Positions 4,726 to 16,263 of a stretch of DNA of 64,000 bases are shown in pieces. How positions within the stretch are numbered: position 1 is the first letter of the stretch; every line of letters starts with the position of its first letter. The position numbers and the translations under genes are program-made. Origin of the DNA: a virus. Lineage: Duplodnaviria; Caudoviricetes. The stretch is taken from positions 64,001 to 128,000 of IMG/VR virus record IMGVR_UViG_3300029288_000071. One strand, given 5' to 3'. The notes under the pieces were generated by a model. That model searched no databases, was not told the origin of the DNA, and was given only the letters and a program-made list of their open reading frames with translations.

Positions 4726-4876
4726 AACCCATCTTATACATTAACTGTTGTATAGGGTCAATTTCTTCAACAACTTCAACTTCTTCTCCAAGATAATATG
4801 GTTTTTTTAAAGAATTAAAAAAAATTGTTGGTTCAGTGCATTTTTTTAAATAATCATTGTATGTCATCTGTATCAT
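4712..4876 (-). CDS. Small protein with LMYKMGY module
   Basis: Start MIQMTY just after tRNA-Pro; ends DPIQQLMYKMGYEKR. Confidence 0.6.
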   Translation of the reverse strand: MIQMTYNDYLKKCTEPTIFFNSLKKPYYLGEEVEVVEEIDPIQQLMYKMGYEKR

Positions 4877-4878
4877 AG

Positions 4879-4952
4879 TCGGTGTAGCTGGATTTGAACC
4901 AGCGATTTCTTGGTCCCAGGCCAAGCGGATTTCCGGGCTTTCCTATACACCG
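4879..4952 (-). tRNA. tRNA-Pro(TGG), C33
   Basis: CTTGG-CCTGGGA-CCAAG; CGG/CCG-A acceptor. Confidence 0.8.
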
Positions 4953-10752: not shown

Positions 10753-12657
10753 TTATACTAAAATATTTAAGATACTATCTTTTTCCAAAGTTTCTGGAGA
10801 TAAGTCAATATCACATTTTTTATCTGCTTTATCAACTAAAACTGCTCCAGCTTTTTCTAAGATTTCTCTTAAAGTAATACTGTTACTATAGAAATTAATC
10901 ATATACTTTCTTGCTTTTTCAGTATAATCATTATTTCTAGAAGTAATAGTATTACCAATACTTGACTTCATCAAATAAAACTTATTCTCTGTAGGTTCTG
11001 TTACTAACAAACCTAAGATTTTTTGTTTTTCTTCGATTTTAAGTTTAACTGTAGAAATGATGTTGTTTGGATTTACCATATAATTCTTTGGTAAATTCAC
11101 TTGTTTTTCACTAGCTACAATTAACTTAAACGGAACTGGAATTTGTTCACTAAAGTTGAAGTAGTTAAGCATTAACATGAAGATATTGCTTTTTTGCTTC
11201 TTAATATAAAACAATTCTGAAGCTCCATTAGCAGCATCTGTCATATCACCAGAAAATAAGATACTAGCACCTTCATTACTACCACCACGGCCGTATCTAT
11301 ATTCTCCATCCCATCCAATTTTAACCAATCCAACTAAAGACAAATCTAAGTCTATTCGGTTGCGGTTAACATTTTCCCAGTAAACACCAATTACTAAATC
11401 TTTTGGAACTGTAATAAATGTTCCTTCTGGAAAATTATCAATAAACATCTTTTCAGTTGCTGGTAAAGCATACTCAGTGTTTTTAGGCAAGAATATCTTT
11501 TTACCATCTACTTTTACTTTGATGCTATCAGCAATAGAATCTAAAACAATGTTATAGATTTTTTCAGCTAACTTTTGGTTTTTGAAGCCGAAATCAGTTG
11601 CATAACTTTTTCCATTTCGAATCTTGTATAAAATAGAATCCAATTCATCTTTTGTTCTGAATTTCAAAGCATAAGCTAATCGGATTTTTCTGAAAATGTT
11701 TACTCGACTTAATTCAACTTTTAACTTTTCTTCGTCTATTTTGTTTTTCTTGACATAAGAAGTTACATTGTTCAAGAAATCTTCAGGCATTGGCTTATGA
11801 TATTTAACAGCCAATTTTCTGATTTTGTTAATAGCAGCTTTCAACCCTTTATTAGTTCTGAAAGCTAAAAACAAAGGTTTAAATCTCAAGAAAATTTCAG
11901 CTAATTTTTCTAAGCCGTATTTCTTTGAGTATTTATTAAACAAATTCAAAGCAGCAAGATTGTCTTTGCTTTTGATTTCTGCAATAAGAGCTTTGTTTTT
12001 AATTAACAAAGTTCGATTTGTTGATTTATAAATTATGTATCTCAAGAATTCAATTGGATGTTCAGGAACAACATCAAAATAATCAAAGAAAGCAATTCTT
12101 ACTTCTTTGTTTTTGATATCATTGATTTCTTTTTCATCTATATTAATAATAGAAGTGCTTATGTCTAAGATATCTCTTTTAGAATCTTCACTTAAAGCAA
12201 TTCCACTTTTCAAGATATTCAAAACTTTTTCTTTGATCTCTTCTTTAGTATAGCCTTTGATTACAGTTAACTTGATTTTGTCAAGTTTGATCTTAGGAAT
12301 CTTCAAAGCTTCATCAGGAATATAAACTGTTTTTTCGTCATATATTCCTAATTGTTCAAATCCATAAGTAGTAATGTAATGAACAATTTGTTCAATTACT
12401 AATTGCTCGATAGAAGAATCTTTAATTTTTTTCCAAGACTTATGGAAAGAACTATTTATCTCTTCTGGTGATATACCAACTTCTGATTTTATTGAATCAG
12501 CAATTTTTATCAATTCAGCTTCAGAATAATTGTAAATTACTTCTGGTGAAAAGATAAAACCAAGTTCAACAGTTTTGTTTAATAAAGCTTTTGGATATTT
12601 CTTTTTGCCGTTTTCTTGAATTAAAACAGCTCTAAACAAACGAATTAATGATAACAT
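10753..12657 (-). CDS. Large helical protein with C-terminal TerD-like domain
   Basis: RIDLDLS...IGWDG...FSGDMTDA..GASELFYI; start MLSLIR after AAGGA. Confidence 0.7.
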   Translation of the reverse strand: MLSLIRLFRAVLIQENGKKKYPKALLNKTVELGFIFSPEVIYNYSEAELIKIADSIKSEVGISPEEINSSFHKSWKKIKDSSIEQLVIEQIVHYITTYGFEQLGIYDEKTVYIPDEALKIPKIKLDKIKLTVIKGYTKEEIKEKVLNILKSGIALSEDSKRDILDISTSIINIDEKEINDIKNKEVRIAFFDYFDVVPEHPIEFLRYIIYKSTNRTLLIKNKALIAEIKSKDNLAALNLFNKYSKKYGLEKLAEIFLRFKPLFLAFRTNKGLKAAINKIRKLAVKYHKPMPEDFLNNVTSYVKKNKIDEEKLKVELSRVNIFRKIRLAYALKFRTKDELDSILYKIRNGKSYATDFGFKNQKLAEKIYNIVLDSIADSIKVKVDGKKIFLPKNTEYALPATEKMFIDNFPEGTFITVPKDLVIGVYWENVNRNRIDLDLSLVGLVKIGWDGEYRYGRGGSNEGASILFSGDMTDAANGASELFYIKKQKSNIFMLMLNYFNFSEQIPVPFKLIVASEKQVNLPKNYMVNPNNIISTVKLKIEEKQKILGLLVTEPTENKFYLMKSSIGNTITSRNNDYTEKARKYMINFYSNSITLREILEKAGAVLVDKADKKCDIDLSPETLEKDSILNILV

Positions 12658-12681
12658 ATTAGTGGATCCTTTCAATTAAAA

Positions 12682-12764
12682 TTTATAAGCGAGAAGTAAT
12701 TACCGTCTGCCCAGGGGCAGACTAGGAGTTGAACCTAGTTATTAGGAACTTCTTTTGCCTATAA
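12682..12764 (-). ncRNA. Repeat ncRNA copy 1, with T arm and closed acceptor-like hairpin
   Basis: GGC-AAA-AGAAGT-TCCTAAT...CTAGG-TTCAACT-CCTAG, TCTGCC-CCTG-GGCAGA, CGGTAA...ACTTCT-C-GCT. Confidence 0.7.
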
Positions 12765-12770
12765 AAAGTT

Positions 12771-12823
12771 TTAGACGGAGAGTAATTGCCTTCAAATGAT
12801 TATTAGGAACTCTCTATGTCTAA
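12771..12823 (-). ncRNA. Repeat ncRNA copy 2
   Basis: TTAGAC-ATA-GAGAGT-TCCTAAT...ACTCTC-C-GTCTAA; compensatory changes. Confidence 0.7.
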
Positions 12824-12832
12824 TTAAAATTC

Positions 12833-12891
12833 GAAGACGAGAAGTATTTTCTTTCATGTAAGGAATTTTATTAGGAACTTCTTATGTCTTC
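12833..12891 (-). ncRNA. Repeat ncRNA copy 3
   Basis: GAAGAC-ATA-AGAAGT-TCCTAAT...ACTTCT-C-GTCTTC. Confidence 0.7.
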
Positions 12892-12907
12892 TTTAAAAAA
12901 ACGGTTC

Positions 12908-12994
12908 GTATTGTTGAGATTTTCACTCAATCACTTTTTCAAGTGTTTAAGCACAGCTGGGATTTCTCCAACAGCTAACATTTCGTGCTAATAC
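12908..12994 (-). ncRNA. Four-way-junction RNA candidate
   Basis: GTATT/AATAC closing stem; two GAAA-capped hairpins; T-arm-like TTGAG-TGAAAAT-CTCAA. Confidence 0.5.
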
Positions 12995-12997
12995 AGG

Positions 12998-13071
12998 TGG
13001 ACCCAAAGGGAGTCGAACCCTCAACTATGCGGTGCAAGCGCATCGTTTTCCCAATTGGCTACTATGGGCCC
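12998..13071 (-). tRNA. tRNA-Ala(TGC)
   Basis: G3:U70; ATGCG-CTTGCAC-CGCAT. Confidence 0.85.
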
Positions 13072-13637
13072 CATTTCAATTTCAAGTATTCTTGAACTTT
13101 ATCAAAAACTTCTTTTTTGTATTTTGAATGAATATAACCATGATGATTTCTGCATAATGGAACTAGATTTTCAGGTCTATTGTCATTGTGAATTAAATTT
13201 ATGTGATGTGCACAAACCATTTTTTCTTCAGGACATATAATACATTTTTTGCCATGATGCTTAAAACAAATTGTTCTATAACTAAATGTTGATTTAGTTC
13301 CATTTTTCTTAAAATTTTCGGCTCTTACAAGGGCTCCAACTTTATTGGAGCATTTTCTAGAACAATAATACTTTTCTTTTTTTGGAAATTCTTTTTCATA
13401 TTCTTCAACATCAAATTTACATTTACAAATTTCACAAACAACTTTAAATATTTTTTTCTTTCCTTTTATTCTTTCAGTTCTAGCAATATTTCCTTTTGCT
13501 AATTTTTCTCTAGTTTGTTGGGAAATAAAAATTCTGTTCTTATTTGAAGAACATCTATTTTGATGATAAGAAATTCCAGTTTTTGTTGTAAAAATTTTTC
13601 TATTACAAAATTTACATATTTGATTTTCTTTTTCCAT
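13062..13637 (-). CDS. HNH homing endonuclease with Zn fingers
   Basis: CIIC...AHHINLIHNDNRPENLVPLCRNHH; YYCSRKC. Confidence 0.85.
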   Translation of the reverse strand: MEKENQICKFCNRKIFTTKTGISYHQNRCSSNKNRIFISQQTREKLAKGNIARTERIKGKKKIFKVVCEICKCKFDVEEYEKEFPKKEKYYCSRKCSNKVGALVRAENFKKNGTKSTFSYRTICFKHHGKKCIICPEEKMVCAHHINLIHNDNRPENLVPLCRNHHGYIHSKYKKEVFDKVQEYLKLKWGP

Positions 13638-13651
13638 GATGATAAATATCA

Positions 13652-13701
13652 TGGAGACCGAGTTAAAATTGTACTTTCGCCCCCACGGCACATGTGAGCC
13701 C
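13652..13701 (-). pseudogene. Broken tRNA remnant (Ala-type 5' half)
   Basis: GGGCTCACATGTGCCGTGGGGGCGA parallels the 5' half of tRNA-Trp; GGGCTCA can pair with the tRNA-Ala 3' strand. Confidence 0.45.
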
Positions 13702-13714
13702 ATATTATATTTGT

Positions 13715-13743
13715 AATCTAATACTTAATTGTGTTAAAGTAAA
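13715..13743 (-). promoter_or_regulatory. Promoter TTTACT-N17-TAGATT
   Basis: Matches the repeated consensus. Confidence 0.6.
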
Positions 13744-13750
13744 CAAAATG

Positions 13751-13835
13751 CTCAACCGGTAGGATTCGAACCTACGATGTCTTTTGGACGACGGCTTAAC
13801 AGGCCGCTGTGGTACCGGGCTCCACGCACGGTTGA
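13751..13835 (-). tRNA. tRNA-Asn(GTT) with long variable arm
   Basis: GCGGC-CTGTTAA-GCCGT; variable arm GTC-CAAAA-GAC. Confidence 0.8.
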
Positions 13836-13844
13836 ATGATAAAT

Positions 13845-13925
13845 GCGGCTAACTGCAAAAAGTATTTACTGTTTCCATCCGGTAACCGGCCCTAGTGTCT
13901 GCTTTTTGGTTAATTCCAATGCCGC
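13845..13925 (-). ncRNA. Hairpin RNA, weakly SRP-domain-IV-like
   Basis: GCGGC/GCCGC, AAAAAG/CTTTTT, ACT-AGGG-CC...GG-AAAC-AGT. Confidence 0.35.
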
Positions 13926-14031
13926 TATGTCAATGAACTTGAGAAGTAAATGAGACTCGAACTCAAAATAACTACCTAGTACTTCTAAAAATTAAAACTG
14001 ATTATAAAAATGTGTAAAGATTAAAAAATTT

Positions 14032-14169
14032 TTAGCGTGATGCTAAGTTCGGTTGATAACTATGCTTTCGTTCCGATTTGGCTGAAGTAAGCACGTTATC
14101 TGATGTAGTCCCGAGTATATTATCAGGTCTAATCGTATTGGGGCAATATGTAAAGCGTAGAGTTTTCAT
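14032..14169 (-). CDS. 45-aa leader-peptide-like ORF
   Basis: MKTLRFTYCPNTIRPDNILGTTSDNVLTSAKSERKHSYQPNLASR; GC-richer than its flanks. Confidence 0.4.
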   Translation of the reverse strand: MKTLRFTYCPNTIRPDNILGTTSDNVLTSAKSERKHSYQPNLASR

Positions 14170-14185
14170 TTTTATTTTTTAAAAT

Positions 14186-14253
14186 TTAGACGAGAAGTAT
14201 TTTCTGGTAGCCGCTGATGGCGGCTTGATTTAATAGGAACTTCTTATGTCTAA
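14186..14253 (-). ncRNA. Repeat ncRNA copy 4
   Basis: TTAGAC-ATA-AGAAGT-TCCTATT...AGCCGC hairpin...ACTTCT-C-GTCTAA; about 30 nt downstream of a promoter. Confidence 0.7.
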
Positions 14254-14283
14254 GTAAAAATAATAAATAATTTAACTAGTTAT

Positions 14284-14312
14284 AATATAATACATTCAAA
14301 GTTAAAAGTAAA
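14284..14312 (-). promoter_or_regulatory. Promoter TTTACT-N17-TATATT
   Basis: Matches the repeated consensus. Confidence 0.7.
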
Positions 14313-14340
14313 CGACTTTTTCAACTTTTTTTACTTTTTG

Positions 14341-14413
14341 TTGCAGGTATAGGAATCGAACCTATGTACCTGGGTTATGAGCCCAGCGGGGAGCCACTCC
14401 ATCGTAACCCGCA
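14341..14413 (-). tRNA. Initiator-type tRNA-Met(CAT)
   Basis: CTGGG-CTCATAA-CCCAG with three G-C pairs. Confidence 0.8.
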
Positions 14414-14482
14414 ATGTAAAAATAAATATCTTTGAAATTCCAAAACAAGTAACAACTGCTAAAAAATTAATCAGCTGTATGA

Positions 14483-15186: not shown

Positions 15187-15660
15187 TTATGTTATTTCAA
15201 TTAATTTAGTTTTAGAAATTGGTTCTATTTTCTTTTTATTAATAGTTACTATTAGTAATCCATCTTTTACATTTGCTATAATTGAATTTTCATCAAGATC
15301 TTCAGATAAGGTAAAAGCTCTAGAAAAAGCAGAAGAATGAATTTCTTTTCTTAAAACTTTTCCTGTAGATTCAGAAGAACTTTGATTTTTTTCACCTGAA
15401 ATAACTAAATATTTTGTTCCTGCTTCATCAGGAGTTATTTCAATTTTCAAGTTTTCTTTTTTCAAACCTGGAACTGTTGCAGTTATTTCAAGTTTTGAAG
15501 GATATTCTTGAATATCTACTTTTGGAAAACTTCCTTTTGTACTTTGAACTGGACTATTGAAAAAATCATCAATATTTTGGTTCCATAAAACATTGAATAT
15601 ATCTTCAAATGAACCTTTGATTAAATTTGGATATTGTCTTTTTATAATTGATTGAGTCAT
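15187..15660 (-). CDS. Hsp20/alpha-crystallin small heat shock protein
   Basis: FPKVDI, VPGLKKE, FSRAFTL, ANVKDGLLIV. Confidence 0.9.
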   Translation of the reverse strand: MTQSIIKRQYPNLIKGSFEDIFNVLWNQNIDDFFNSPVQSTKGSFPKVDIQEYPSKLEITATVPGLKKENLKIEITPDEAGTKYLVISGEKNQSSSESTGKVLRKEIHSSAFSRAFTLSEDLDENSIIANVKDGLLIVTINKKKIEPISKTKLIEIT

Positions 15661-15834
15661 GATAGATCTCCGTAAATAGCAGTCCCTGAGGATGGTATAT
15701 TTAGAATATACTTATGATAGCACTTTATAGGCGCCGTCACATCTTGCTCAGGATTTACCTGCTGAGTTGCTAAATAGCTAACTCATGTTTATTATATGTC
15801 AAAGAACCTTTAAGAGCAACATTCTAGCGAAATG

Positions 15835-16263
15835 TGGACCTGTGCGGATTCGAACCGCAGTGTTACTATAATTAAATCTGAATTTCTACAAGTTTATCTA
15901 ATTTTCCAGTGCGAAATTTGAGCTCGCAAAAATGTCTGGTACAAATTTGATATAGCAGAAAAATTAGAAAACTTACTATATCTCATCAAGTAATTTTTTA
16001 ATGAAGATCACTTGATAAGAACTTCAGACCTGAAACCAATTGCCGAGGACACCAGTTAGTCTACAAATTTTCGAAGTGGCTAACAACTACGTTACTAAAG
16101 CTTTTTAGGCTAAAGCAAATTCATTTTGAGAAACAAAAGCTAAAGCATCCTCAAAAGTGAAGGCAGATTTTTGTTCTGCATTTATGTTTTTAGATAAGTT
16201 TAAAGAGCTTCAAGCTCTACTTGCTATTCAGTTCGCTTATAATAGTCGATACCTTTCAGGCCC
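15835..16263 (-). ncRNA. ssrA: tmRNA
   Basis: 5' GGGCCTGAAAGGTATCGAC; 3' GCGGTTCGAATCCGCACAGGTCCA; G3:U70; resume site ATAAAT-GCA; tag AEQKSAFTFEDALAFVSQNEFALA (16179-16105). Confidence 0.9.

What the first reader, a model, noticed from the sequence alone, without database searches (positions are those of the whole stretch)
10753..14253. Four-copy covarying ncRNA family beside a helical/TerD-like protein (Ro60-Y RNA analogue?)
Seen: copies at 12682-12764, 12771-12823, 12833-12891 and 14186-14253 share outer helix / A[AT]A-versus-C internal loop / 6-bp helix / TCCTA[AT]TA, with compensatory changes (AGAAGT:ACTTCT versus GAGAGT:ACTCTC; TTAGAC:GTCTAA versus GAAGAC:GTCTTC) and variable apical cargo. 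Copy 1 carries a T arm, a closed acceptor-like hairpin and GGTAA. Three copies directly precede the 634-aa gene, and copy 4 is first after a promoter. Known: Y RNAs bind Ro60 through a bulged helix, lie next to its gene, and YrlA has this permuted tRNA module. Inference: an undescribed RNP in which a TROVE-like helical ring with TerD (instead of vWA) binds modular RNAs, perhaps for tRNA repair or stress response.
Basis: partly seen in the sequence, partly recalled or inferred. Interest (0 to 1): 0.85.

Follow-up and report, generated by a model that had tools for sequence, protein, structure and literature searches.

The report
New phage RNA–protein module mimicking tRNA
Four copies of an undescribed small structured RNA sit beside an unannotated 634-residue protein, and this RNA–protein pair recurs in hundreds of large phages and some bacteria, sometimes next to RNA-repair genes, so it probably forms an RNA–protein particle that works like, but is not related to, the Ro60–Y RNA system.

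Summary
All four elements (12682-12765, 12768-12826, 12830-12894, 14183-14256, minus strand) share one "handle": outer helix, AUA-versus-C internal loop, 6-bp helix, UCCUAWWA. The apical cargo varies.

A covariance model built from relatives found 200 copies in 75 of 75 homologous loci. All lie on the gene strand, usually 2-3 in tandem, ending about 22 nt before the start codon. Covariation is strong, and no Rfam family matches the window copies.

The protein belongs to a large unannotated family (1684 clusters at 50% identity). It has a helical N-domain with no recognisable fold and a TerD-fold C-domain. It is not detectably TROVE/Ro60.

The Ro60–Y RNA analogy nevertheless holds functionally:
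- Some relatives carry a complete circularly permuted tRNA that matches Rfam YrlA end to end, below threshold.
- In Chryseobacterium the order is RtcB, three RNAs, the gene, RlaP.
- Genomes holding stray RNA copies encode the protein elsewhere.

Cultured cyanophages S-CRM01 and S-CBWM1 carry the module.

Best reading: an undescribed RNP in tRNA/RNA surveillance or repair. Binding is inferred, not shown. A first-stage note had flagged a similar TerD-fused protein in another genome.

The parts
12682..12765 (-). RNA copy 1, nearest the gene. Handle plus reduced tRNA-like cargo: T-arm-like hairpin 12738-12722, closed acceptor-like hairpin 12721-12706, then CGGUAAUU.
   Evidence: CM R1 gives 44 bits, E 1e-9. 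The fold has z -4.1. The sequence was read. The orthologous copy in L006:887-973 has the same design.
12768..12826 (-). RNA copy 2: handle with a short unstructured apical loop. Inner helix GAGAGU/ACUCUC.
   Evidence: CM R1 gives 55.9 bits. Fold.
12830..12894 (-). RNA copy 3: handle with a short loop that can form an anticodon-arm-like mini-hairpin (UUC / CUUACAU / GAA).
   Evidence: CM R1 gives 66.4 bits. Fold. Loop analysis.
14183..14256 (-). RNA copy 4: handle with a G+C hairpin cargo. It lies 1.5 kb upstream of the gene, between tRNA-Met and tRNA-Asn.
   Evidence: CM R1 gives 50.3 bits. The fold has z -5.7. The orthologous copy is L007:1018-1072.
10753..12657 (-). Gene of the 634-aa partner protein (P0002). 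Its SD-like AAAGGA lies at 12672-12667.
   Evidence: ORF and translation are. There are about 2000 homologues in 1684 clusters at 50% identity. Pfam, PHROGs, PADLOC, NCBIfam and PDB sequence searches gave no match.
11482..12657 (-). N-terminal, mostly helical domain (residues 1-392). It carries the invariant motifs FHKSWKK and QxxHYxTTYG and many conserved Arg and Lys residues.
   Evidence: AF2 models have pLDDT 84-86. No significant structural relative turned up in PDB or the ESM Atlas outside its own family.
10900..11409 (-). TerD-fold beta-sandwich domain (residues 417-586). It keeps the conserved DLDLS and FSGDxTDA...GASE segments.
   Evidence: Foldseek hits 2kxt and 3ibz at probability 1.0, E 4e-4. 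VIA-align gives 2qz7 Z 8.9 and 2kxt Z 8.0, with 142-145 residues aligned.
14284..14312 (-). Promoter-like consensus match upstream of copy 4. Weak and unverified.
   Evidence: It matches 9 of 12 positions. The region holds 6 such matches against 7.8 expected from shuffles. The stretch is conserved in L007.

Best explanation
The window holds one instance of a conserved two-part module.

**Part 1: the RNAs.** These are small structured RNAs of about 55-135 nt that share a constant handle. Read 5' to 3', the handle is:
- a 4-7-bp outer helix ending in GRC;
- an internal loop of AUA opposite a single C;
- a 6-bp covarying helix RNNNGU/ACNNNY;
- then single-stranded UCCUAWWA on the 5' side and UA on the 3' side.

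The handle closes a variable cargo. The cargo can be:
- a short loop, often shaped like an anticodon arm;
- a G+C hairpin;
- a tRNA body joined to the handle at its anticodon loop, with its acceptor end closed. This is the design of the bacterial Y RNA YrlA.

**Part 2: the protein.** It is about 630 aa long, with a helical N-domain of no recognisable fold and a TerD-fold C-domain.

**Inferred mechanism.**
- The RNAs are made from the same transcript as the gene, or from tRNA-cluster transcripts.
- The protein binds the handle.
- The resulting particle presents tRNA-like pieces to tRNA-directed enzymes.
- It thereby acts in tRNA/RNA surveillance or repair, together with RtcB where that ligase is present.

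This makes it a functional analogue of Ro60-YrlA built from an unrelated protein.

**Shown versus inferred.** Shown: the RNA structure, the co-inheritance and the gene contexts. Inferred: binding, processing and the repair role.
For: 1. **Structure.** In 102 sequences, 11 of 12 pairs change on both sides. The covariation score is 0.68 against 0.24 in shuffles and at most 0.22 for slid partners. Pair 6-69, which was not part of my selection filter, is 100% paired with 47 double changes. A model-derived set of 105 hits gives the same picture.
2. **Linkage in phages.** The model finds 200 hits in 751 kb. All are on the gene strand, and 75 of 75 sources have at least one. In 71 of 75, 1-6 copies lie within 450 nt upstream. 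The nearest copy ends a median of 22 nt before the start codon.
3. **No other conserved neighbour.** No protein-coding neighbour is shared across the 74 viral loci.
4. **Reverse test.** A handle pattern scan returned 70 viral loci. The true copies that have no gene nearby lie in large phages. All six such records that are at least 32% complete encode the protein elsewhere. Each of those distant homologues still has a copy directly upstream.
5. **Bacterial and MAG contigs.** The same module occurs in 77 such loci. There were 102 hits, all on the gene strand.
6. **tRNA mimicry.**
   - Four elements, cut in the closed acceptor loop and rotated, are called complete tRNAs by ARAGORN, with the handle read as an intron in the anticodon loop. 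None is called in native order.
   - L060:3772-3875 and L027:2426-2538 match Rfam YrlA across positions 1-114 (42.4 and 39 bits).
   - Anticodon-arm-like mini-hairpins occur in 41 of 187 short cargos. Shuffles give 11.2 +/- 3.2.
7. **Repair context.**
   - In Chryseobacterium defluvii the order is RtcB, three RNAs, the gene, RlaP.
   - RtcB lies within 4 kb in 7 of 151 loci from at least 5 lineages.
   - An RNA-ligase gene lies near L008.
   - The window's phage and five megaphages all encode RtcB and none encodes TROVE.
8. **tRNA clusters.** The gene sits inside tRNA clusters in this window, in S-CRM01 and in S-CBWM1. tRNAs lie within 4 kb in 23 of 74 viral loci.
Against: - No binding, processing or expression data exist. 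No RNA-seq run holds the sequence.
- Only 7 of 205 copies carry tRNA-body cargo. In the window only copy 1 does, in reduced form. The YrlA likeness therefore applies to a minority.
- The near-constant position just upstream of the start codon, on the same strand, would fit a cis-acting leader equally well.
- RtcB adjacency is rare (7 of 151). For the viral loci alone (2 of 74) it is no more than chance might give.
- S-CRM01, S-CBWM1 and Phass-1 have the module but no RtcB.
- Chryseobacterium has a canonical TROVE gene as well. The module is therefore not simply a Ro60 replacement.
- The N-domain has no recognisable RNA-binding fold.
Confidence: 0.52

Rival explanations
1. Cis-acting leader. 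The hairpins are operator sites in the 5' untranslated region. The protein, or another factor, binds them to control translation or stability of its own mRNA. They have no role in trans.
For: - In 71 of 75 loci the array lies directly upstream on the same strand. The last copy ends a median of 22 nt before the start codon.
- No terminator-like site lies between the array and the gene in the window.
- The conserved UCCU could pair with the AGGA ribosome-binding site (sequence).
Against: - The arrays lie downstream of the gene in L033 and L072. There are extra downstream copies in L025, L035, L078, L084 and S-CRM01.
- Copy 4 of the window is 1.5 kb away, beyond a tRNA and an ORF.
- Megaphages have up to seven copies spread over 13 kb, far from the gene.
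- Variable cargo that includes whole tRNA bodies is hard to explain for an operator.
Confidence: 0.15
2. Type III toxin-antitoxin-like or other conflict module. The protein is an effector, possibly an RNase. It processes the upstream RNA array and is held inactive by the units, as in ToxIN or AbiF.
For: - Tandem RNA units lie directly upstream of the gene on the same strand.
- The module is distributed patchily as a two-part unit among unrelated neighbours, in phages and in bacterial chromosomes.
- The protein has invariant His, Lys and Arg motifs.
Against: - The units are not near-identical repeats. They differ through compensatory changes and carry different cargos.
- No PADLOC model matches.
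- No ToxN- or HEPN-like fold was found.
- No terminator lies between the array and the gene.
- Association with RtcB and RlaP, and tRNA-like cargo, point to repair rather than toxicity.
Confidence: 0.15
3. Processing or stability punctuation. The hairpins are recognition sites for a host or phage RNase, or protective stem-loops, used to cut or stabilise polycistronic tRNA-mRNA transcripts. Their link to the gene would be only positional.
For: - The module lies in tRNA clusters, where transcripts must be cut.
- An earlier first-stage note reports ORFs starting 1-7 nt after tRNAs in this genome (I did not check it).
Against: - A general processing signal should occur before many genes. In the 207-kb genome it occurs only at these four sites.
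- In every other genome it follows this one protein family: 75 of 75 viral loci, and 102 hits across 77 bacterial and MAG loci.
Confidence: 0.06
4. Permuted tRNA precursors. The handle would be a splice-like motif that is excised, with the ends ligated by RtcB. A circular intermediate would then be opened at the acceptor loop to give a working tRNA.
For: - After rotation, four elements are complete cloverleaves with the handle placed exactly in the anticodon loop.
- RtcB occurs in the same genomes.
Against: - 198 of 205 copies have no tRNA body.
- The acceptor ends are closed by loops of only 4-7 nt, with no CCA.
- The handle is not a bulge-helix-bulge motif.
- YrlA has the same design and is not a tRNA precursor (PMC4201824).
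Confidence: 0.03

Closest known systems
Ro60 (Rsr, TROVE + vWA) with Y RNAs, especially YrlA (Rfam RF02553; rsr-yrlBA-rtcBA operon of Salmonella; Chen et al. 2014, PMC4201824)
   Same: - Small RNAs are encoded beside the gene of a two-domain protein of about 550-630 aa, with a helical N-part and a metal-binding-type C-domain.
- The RNA has a conserved stem or handle plus a variable module.
- In some members the module is a tRNA body ordered T arm, closed acceptor, D arm.
- There are several different RNAs per locus.
- The module is a neighbour of RtcB and RlaP in some bacteria.
- It is present in phages.
   Different: - The protein shows no detectable TROVE homology.
- Its C-domain is TerD rather than vWA.
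- The handle (GRC / AUA:C / 6 bp / UCCUAWWA) is not the GNCGAA(N)G or GGUCCGA Ro-binding motif.
- Most copies have no tRNA body.
- The RNAs lie almost always upstream of the gene.
- Both systems coexist in Chryseobacterium.
Type III toxin-antitoxin systems (ToxIN, CptIN, AbiF with its RNA)
   Same: A tandem array of small structured RNAs lies directly upstream of the partner protein gene on the same strand. The module is found in phages and bacteria.
   Different: - The units here are diverged genes with covarying helices and different cargos. They are not near-identical repeats.
- The protein is three times larger, with an unrelated predicted fold.
- There is no PADLOC match.
TerD-family proteins of tellurite-resistance (Ter) operons
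   Same: The C-terminal 170 residues adopt the TerD beta-sandwich and keep DLDLS- and SGD-type segments.
   Different: - The TerD domain is fused to a 400-aa helical domain.
- No Ter operon partners are present.
- The Pfam TerD model does not match.
- The acidic GDGDDE segment is replaced.
Stable non-tRNA RNAs of the phage T4 tRNA region (species 1 and 2; from my own knowledge, not checked here)
   Same: Small stable RNAs are encoded within a phage tRNA gene cluster and co-transcribed with tRNAs.
   Different: The T4 RNAs have no known dedicated protein partner and no shared handle. No sequence comparison was made here.

Membership tests
YrlA / bacterial Y RNA (Rfam RF02553) | Scores at or above the Rfam gathering score (69 bits) with the YrlA covariance model | tested here: not met
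   - The window copies give no YrlA match at E <= 10.
- The only weak hit in the whole genome lies over real tRNAs.
- Relatives with full tRNA cargo score 42.4 and 39 bits. These are significant (E 3e-6 and 3e-5) but below the gathering score.
YrlA / bacterial Y RNA (Rfam RF02553) | tRNA-like module in the order T arm, closed acceptor stem, D arm, joined to the rest of the RNA at the anticodon-stem position | tested here: met
   - The feature is met in relatives L015, L027, L060 and L088. ARAGORN calls tRNAs after rotation, and the YrlA model aligns across positions 1-114.
- Window copy 1 has only the T arm, the closed hairpin and a GGUAA remnant.
- Only 7 of 205 copies overall have this cargo.
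YrlA / bacterial Y RNA (Rfam RF02553) | Ro60-binding motif GNCGAAN0-1G (or GGUCCGA in animals) in the terminal stem (PMC4201824) | tested here: not met
   The conserved handle reads GRC-AUA-RNNNGU-UCCUAWWA. In the YrlA alignment the handle is left outside the model's terminal stem.
YrlA / bacterial Y RNA (Rfam RF02553) | Encoded next to a TROVE-domain (Ro60) gene and bound by Ro60 | tested here: not met
   No TROVE gene was found in the window's phage or in five module-bearing megaphages. The constant neighbour is a different protein. Binding could not be tested.
Ro60 / TROVE protein family | Sequence match to Pfam TROVE (PF05731), or profile-profile similarity to TROVE proteins | tested here: not met
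   None of 51 members hits TROVE at E <= 0.1. hhalign of A1 and A2 against ten Bacteroidota TROVE proteins gives probability 0.2-0.4%.
Ro60 / TROVE protein family | HEAT-repeat ring fold followed by a vWA domain | tested here: inconclusive
   - Ro60 structures 1yvp and 9l5y appear at Z 5.5-6.2 (rmsd 2.4-8.1; 60-153 residues aligned). They are tied with dozens of unrelated helical proteins.
- Foldseek shows no Ro60 match.
- The C-domain has the TerD fold, not vWA.
TerD domain | TerD beta-sandwich fold | tested here: met
   Foldseek gives probability 1.0 to 2kxt and 3ibz. VIA gives Z 8.9 (rmsd 3.1; 142 aligned) and Z 8.0 (rmsd 3.4; 145 aligned).
TerD domain | Match to the Pfam TerD model and intact Ca-binding GDGDDE-type segment | tested here: not met
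   There is no Pfam TerD hit at E <= 1. The conserved segment reads FSGDxTDAxxPNGASE rather than the acidic motif.
Type III toxin-antitoxin | Tandem RNA units directly upstream of the protein gene on the same strand | tested here: met
   Met in 71 of 75 loci, typically with 2-3 units.
Type III toxin-antitoxin | Near-identical repeat units, a terminator before the toxin gene, and a toxin of a known ToxN/CptN/AbiF-type family | tested here: not met
   - The units differ through compensatory changes and in cargo.
- No terminator-like site lies on the gene strand.
- There is no PADLOC, Pfam or fold match to such toxins.

The most novel reading that the evidence does not exclude
A categorically new ribonucleoprotein system of large phages and some bacteria. 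A non-TROVE protein binds a universal RNA handle, and the handle serves as a display scaffold for interchangeable tRNA pieces: anticodon arms, D plus anticodon arms, or whole acceptor-closed tRNA bodies. The particles would act as decoys or sensors for host anticodon nucleases and other tRNA-directed defences, or would recruit RtcB to cut tRNAs. Either way they would protect the phage's own large tRNA set.
Probability: 0.25. Interest if true: 0.92.

Novelty: new variant of a known kind. Interest (0 to 1): 0.8.

Why it matters
- **Two uncharacterised families gain a testable function.** A very large unannotated protein family (1684 clusters at 50% identity) and an RNA family absent from Rfam would each be explained by the other.
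- **A second, independent solution.** It would show another way to build a particle from a protein, a handle RNA and a tRNA mimic, alongside Ro60-Y RNA. That bears on why such particles exist and on what tRNA mimicry is for.
- **Phage tRNA clusters.** It would add a component to phage tRNA gene clusters, whose role in countering host tRNA-cleaving defences is under active study.
- **Experiments are possible.** The module is present in cultured systems: Synechococcus phages S-CRM01 and S-CBWM1, and Chryseobacterium defluvii DSM 14219.
- **Annotation.** At least one annotated ORF (S-CRM01 g173c) lies over the RNA array and is probably spurious.

Tried and rejected
- **Rfam.** The gathering-score scan of the whole window found only tRNAs and the tmRNA. 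The E <= 10 scan of 12600-14450 gave nothing for the elements apart from a chance SSRC34 match at E 0.27.
- **DNA search of the phage collection** with the region found no match.
- **First locus search** with the single protein found nothing. An alignment was needed.
- **Sequence libraries.** PHROGs, PADLOC, NCBIfam and PDB sequence searches with the protein or its profile found no family. The one exception is a weak partial NCBIfam hit of one homologue to the SCO0854 RING family.
- **Structure searches of the N-domain alone** (Foldseek PDB, VIA wide, ESM Atlas by shape and by features) found only its own family or noise-level helical matches.
- **Longer fused forms.** None was found. The tool itself rates this as weak evidence.
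- **Sequencing runs.** No RNA holder was listed. There are three DNA holders, from landfill and groundwater metagenomes, so nothing can be said about expression.
- **Literature.** Searches for a prior description found none. The topics were YrlA/Ro60, S-CRM01, permuted tRNA in phage, TerD with RNA repair, and the 2026 tRNA-mimic preprint.
- **K-turn reading of the AUA loop.** Rejected, because the pairs after the bulge are covarying Watson-Crick pairs rather than G.A pairs.
- **HEPN-like Rx6H (R280...H287).** I noticed it but set it aside, because no HEPN fold match supports it.
- **RtcB as an obligatory partner.** Rejected, because three complete phages carry the module without RtcB.
- **Complex prediction** was not used, because the partner in question is an RNA.

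Full report
**Setting.** The window is bases 64001-128000 of a 207-kb virus record from a landfill metagenome. The record is estimated 91% complete. It has about 30% G+C. Every tRNA gene and ORF I examined in the first 18 kb lies on the minus strand. The window's first 16 kb are a tRNA island with 23-26 tRNA genes and a tmRNA. The finding lies inside this island.

Read on the minus strand, the four reported stretches share this plan:
- an outer helix ending in GRC;
- three unpaired bases (AUA, or AAA in copy 1) opposite a single C;
- a 6-bp helix;
- UCCUAAUAA (UCCUAUUAA in copy 4), then variable sequence, then UA before the return strands.

The word AGTTCCTAWTA occurs five times in the 207-kb genome. 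Four are these sites. The fifth is inside a gene and lacks the helices. Each copy folds as proposed, with z-scores of -2.6 to -5.7. Copy 1 contains CUAGGUUCAACUCCUAG (a T-arm look-alike), a closed G+C hairpin, and CGGUAAUU. Copies 1-3 are contiguous, and copy 1 ends 25 nt before the ATG (12657) of a 634-aa ORF. The claimed promoter before copy 4 is only a 9-of-12 consensus match, no more than shuffled sequence gives.

**The RNA family is real and large.**
- The two closest homologous loci (protein identity 83% and 79%) have three copies in the same place. Their helices differ through compensation, for example AAGGGGU/ACCCCUC and AAAGAGU/ACUCUUC.
- A profile of the protein fetched 80 viral loci.
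- I aligned 102 short-cargo instances and counted pairs. Of 12 pairs, 11 change on both sides. The covariation score is 0.68 against 0.24 for shuffles and at most 0.22 for slid partners.
- My selection required the inner helix and three outer pairs to be paired, so the percentage paired there is partly by construction. Pair 6-69 was not selected for. It is 100% paired, with 47 double changes.
- A covariance model built from this alignment found 200 hits in 751 kb at E <= 0.01. Every hit was on the strand of the gene, and all 75 sources had at least one.
- A model-derived alignment of 105 hits gives the same covariation.
- No Rfam family matches the window copies, even at E <= 10.

**Census.**

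| Measure | Result |
|---|---|
| Loci with 1-6 copies within 450 nt upstream | 71 of 75 (the mode is 2-3 copies) |
| Distance from the nearest copy's end to the start codon | median 22 nt |
| Loci with the array 0.8-1.3 kb upstream | 2 (L008, L042); in L008 a NUMOD3-type gene lies between |
| Loci with the array just downstream of the gene | 2 (L033, L072) |
| Loci with extra downstream copies | 5 |
| Cargo: short loops | 160 of 205 |
| Cargo: stable hairpins | 38 of 205 |
| Cargo: tRNA-like bodies | 7 of 205 |

**tRNA mimicry.**
- I cut four elements (L015, L027, L060, L088) in the loop that closes their acceptor-like hairpin and rotated them. ARAGORN then calls each a complete tRNA, with the handle read as an intron of 49-54 nt in the anticodon loop. 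In native order it calls none.
- This is the design of YrlA. The Rfam YrlA model aligns to L060:3772-3875 and L027:2426-2538 over positions 1-114, at 42.4 and 39 bits (E 3e-6 and 3e-5; gathering score 69). The score comes from the T arm, the closed acceptor and the D arm, in the same order.
- The handle itself is not aligned to YrlA's terminal stem. It does not resemble the published Ro60-binding motif GNCGAAN0-1G (PMC4201824).
- Megaphage copies carry another cargo: a D arm followed by an anticodon-arm-like hairpin. There the handle's inner helix stands where an acceptor stem would be.
- Among short cargos, mini-hairpins with a 7-nt loop of the form YU-NNN-RN occur in 41 of 187. Shuffles give 11.2 +/- 3.2, with a maximum of 22. 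CUGUUAA and CUUGAAA recur. The loci are related, so this count is a lead rather than a probability.

**The protein.**
- P0002 has about 2000 homologues in the word-indexed search. The exhaustive search finds 1684 cluster representatives at E <= 0.001, nearly all full-length at about 620-660 aa.
- It has no Pfam, PHROGs, PADLOC or NCBIfam family and no PDB sequence relative.
- AlphaFold2 with 51 sequences gives pLDDT 86.
- Residues 417-586 form a TerD sandwich (Foldseek probability 1.0; VIA Z 8.9 and 8.0).
- Residues 1-392 are mostly helical. Modelled alone (pLDDT 84), they have no significant relative in PDB or the ESM Atlas beyond their own family.
- Ro60 structures appear only at Z 5.5-6.2, in a crowd of unrelated helical repeats. 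hhalign against ten Bacteroidota TROVE proteins gives a probability below 1%.
- I therefore do not file the protein as TROVE.

**Co-inheritance.**
- No protein-coding neighbour is conserved across the viral loci. The RNA array is the only constant partner.
- In the reverse direction, a scan of viral contigs for a handle pattern gave 70 loci. Of these, 36 hold the gene. About 15 of the rest are chance matches inside genes. The remaining true copies mostly lie in large phages or in short fragments.
- All six such records that are at least 32% complete encode the protein elsewhere. Each of those distant homologues has a copy directly upstream.

**Beyond phages.**
- A scan of one genome per prokaryote species gave 80 loci. 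I searched 77 of them with the model. There were 102 hits, all on the gene strand and mostly directly upstream.
- Many of these contigs are probably phage sequence binned into MAGs. Several, however, are large chromosomal contigs with ordinary neighbours such as SecA, carotenoid synthase or a LacI-type regulator.
- In Chryseobacterium defluvii the order is RtcB, three RNAs, the gene, RlaP. RtcB also precedes the module in C. pennae, C. vrystaatense, a Desulfobacterales MAG, L169 and viral loci L010 and L022. That makes 7 of 151 loci.
- For bacterial genomes this is well above my rough expectation of about 0.1. For the viral loci alone it is not.
- The window's phage encodes RtcB 22 kb away. 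Five megaphages also encode it, and none encodes TROVE.
- Against a strict link, S-CRM01, S-CBWM1 and Phass-1 have the module but no RtcB. Two Chryseobacterium genomes also have a canonical TROVE gene.

**Cultured carriers.**
- Synechococcus phage S-CRM01: gp174, with three copies upstream and one downstream, in the middle of its tRNA cluster.
- S-CBWM1: gp22, with one copy upstream and one among the tRNAs.
- The gut phage Phass-1: four copies 1.3 kb downstream.

All three genes are annotated as hypothetical.

**Interpretation.** What is shown:
- a covarying RNA family;
- its strict co-inheritance with one protein family across deep divergence;
- tRNA-derived cargos;
- an RNA-repair neighbourhood in some bacteria.

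The simplest reading is that the protein binds the handle and the particle deals with tRNAs or tRNA-directed enzymes, as proposed for Ro60-YrlA. The protein is unrelated to Ro60 and the handle is different. I put this at about 0.5.

The main rivals are a purely cis-acting leader and a type III TA-like arrangement. The leader reading is favoured by the constant upstream position and disfavoured by orphan and downstream copies and by the cargo. The TA-like reading is favoured by the array-before-gene layout and the patchy spread, and disfavoured by the diverged units and the absence of any toxin-like fold.

No paper I could find describes either family. A first-stage note of this scan had flagged a similar TerD-fused 637-aa protein in another genome.

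Noticed in passing
window 13062-13703 (-) and 12996-13071 (-): A 31-nt stretch at 13703-13672 matches the 5' part of the tRNA-Ala that is intact in relatives L006 and L007. It is followed by an ORF of about 200 aa with no Pfam family, and then by a complete tRNA-Ala(UGC) with a different 5' half. This looks like an inserted gene cassette that replaced part of a tRNA gene and left a 5' remnant.
   Followed up: partly
window 13845-14160 (-): Two non-coding blocks between copy 4 and tRNA-Asn are highly conserved in L007, and the second also in L006. The second begins with a hairpin that encloses a T-arm-like GAGUUCGAGUCUC and continues into a long GCGGC...GCCGC stem with a variable inner hairpin. 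No Rfam match appeared at E <= 10, so these may be further unknown RNAs.
   Followed up: partly
window 12897-12995 (-): A block of about 100 nt between tRNA-Ala and copy 3 is conserved in L007 but absent from L006. It has no ORF and no Rfam match.
   Followed up: no
L166 (NC_015569) 4800-4946, minus strand: The annotated S-CRM01 ORF g173c lies on the opposite strand, directly over the three-copy RNA array upstream of gp174. It is probably not a gene.
   Followed up: partly
L117:271-348, L100:106-185, L126:3121-3200, L146:2134-2213, L129:2134-2210: In megaphages, some handle RNAs carry a D arm plus an anticodon-arm-like hairpin (for example with loop UUGGUAA). They are followed within about 10 nt by an ordinary tRNA gene. 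Up to seven handle RNAs are spread over 13 kb in L096.
   Followed up: partly
L188:4972-6624 and L194:4922-6511: In a Desulfobacterales MAG and in Marinicella meishanensis, the gene directly downstream of the module encodes a homologous HEAT-repeat protein of about 530-550 aa (phmmer E 2e-32 between the two).
   Followed up: partly
L188:2992-4854, residues 396-466: There is a weak partial NCBIfam match (E 2e-7) to the MXAN_6230/SCO0854 RING-domain family. An ESM Atlas structural neighbour (TM 0.52) is an actinobacterial 632-aa cluster in which 21% of members carry Prok-RING_4. The family may therefore have distant cellular relatives with a RING domain.
   Followed up: no
L251-L254 (Chryseobacterium defluvii and C. 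vrystaatense genomes): Both genomes carry a canonical 506-aa TROVE (Ro60-like) gene elsewhere, in addition to the RtcB-linked module. The two systems therefore coexist.
   Followed up: partly
window 15187-15660 (-) and 15832-16263 (-): A phage-encoded Hsp20 / alpha-crystallin small heat-shock protein (Pfam E 2e-19) lies next to a full-length tmRNA gene, within the tRNA island.
   Followed up: no
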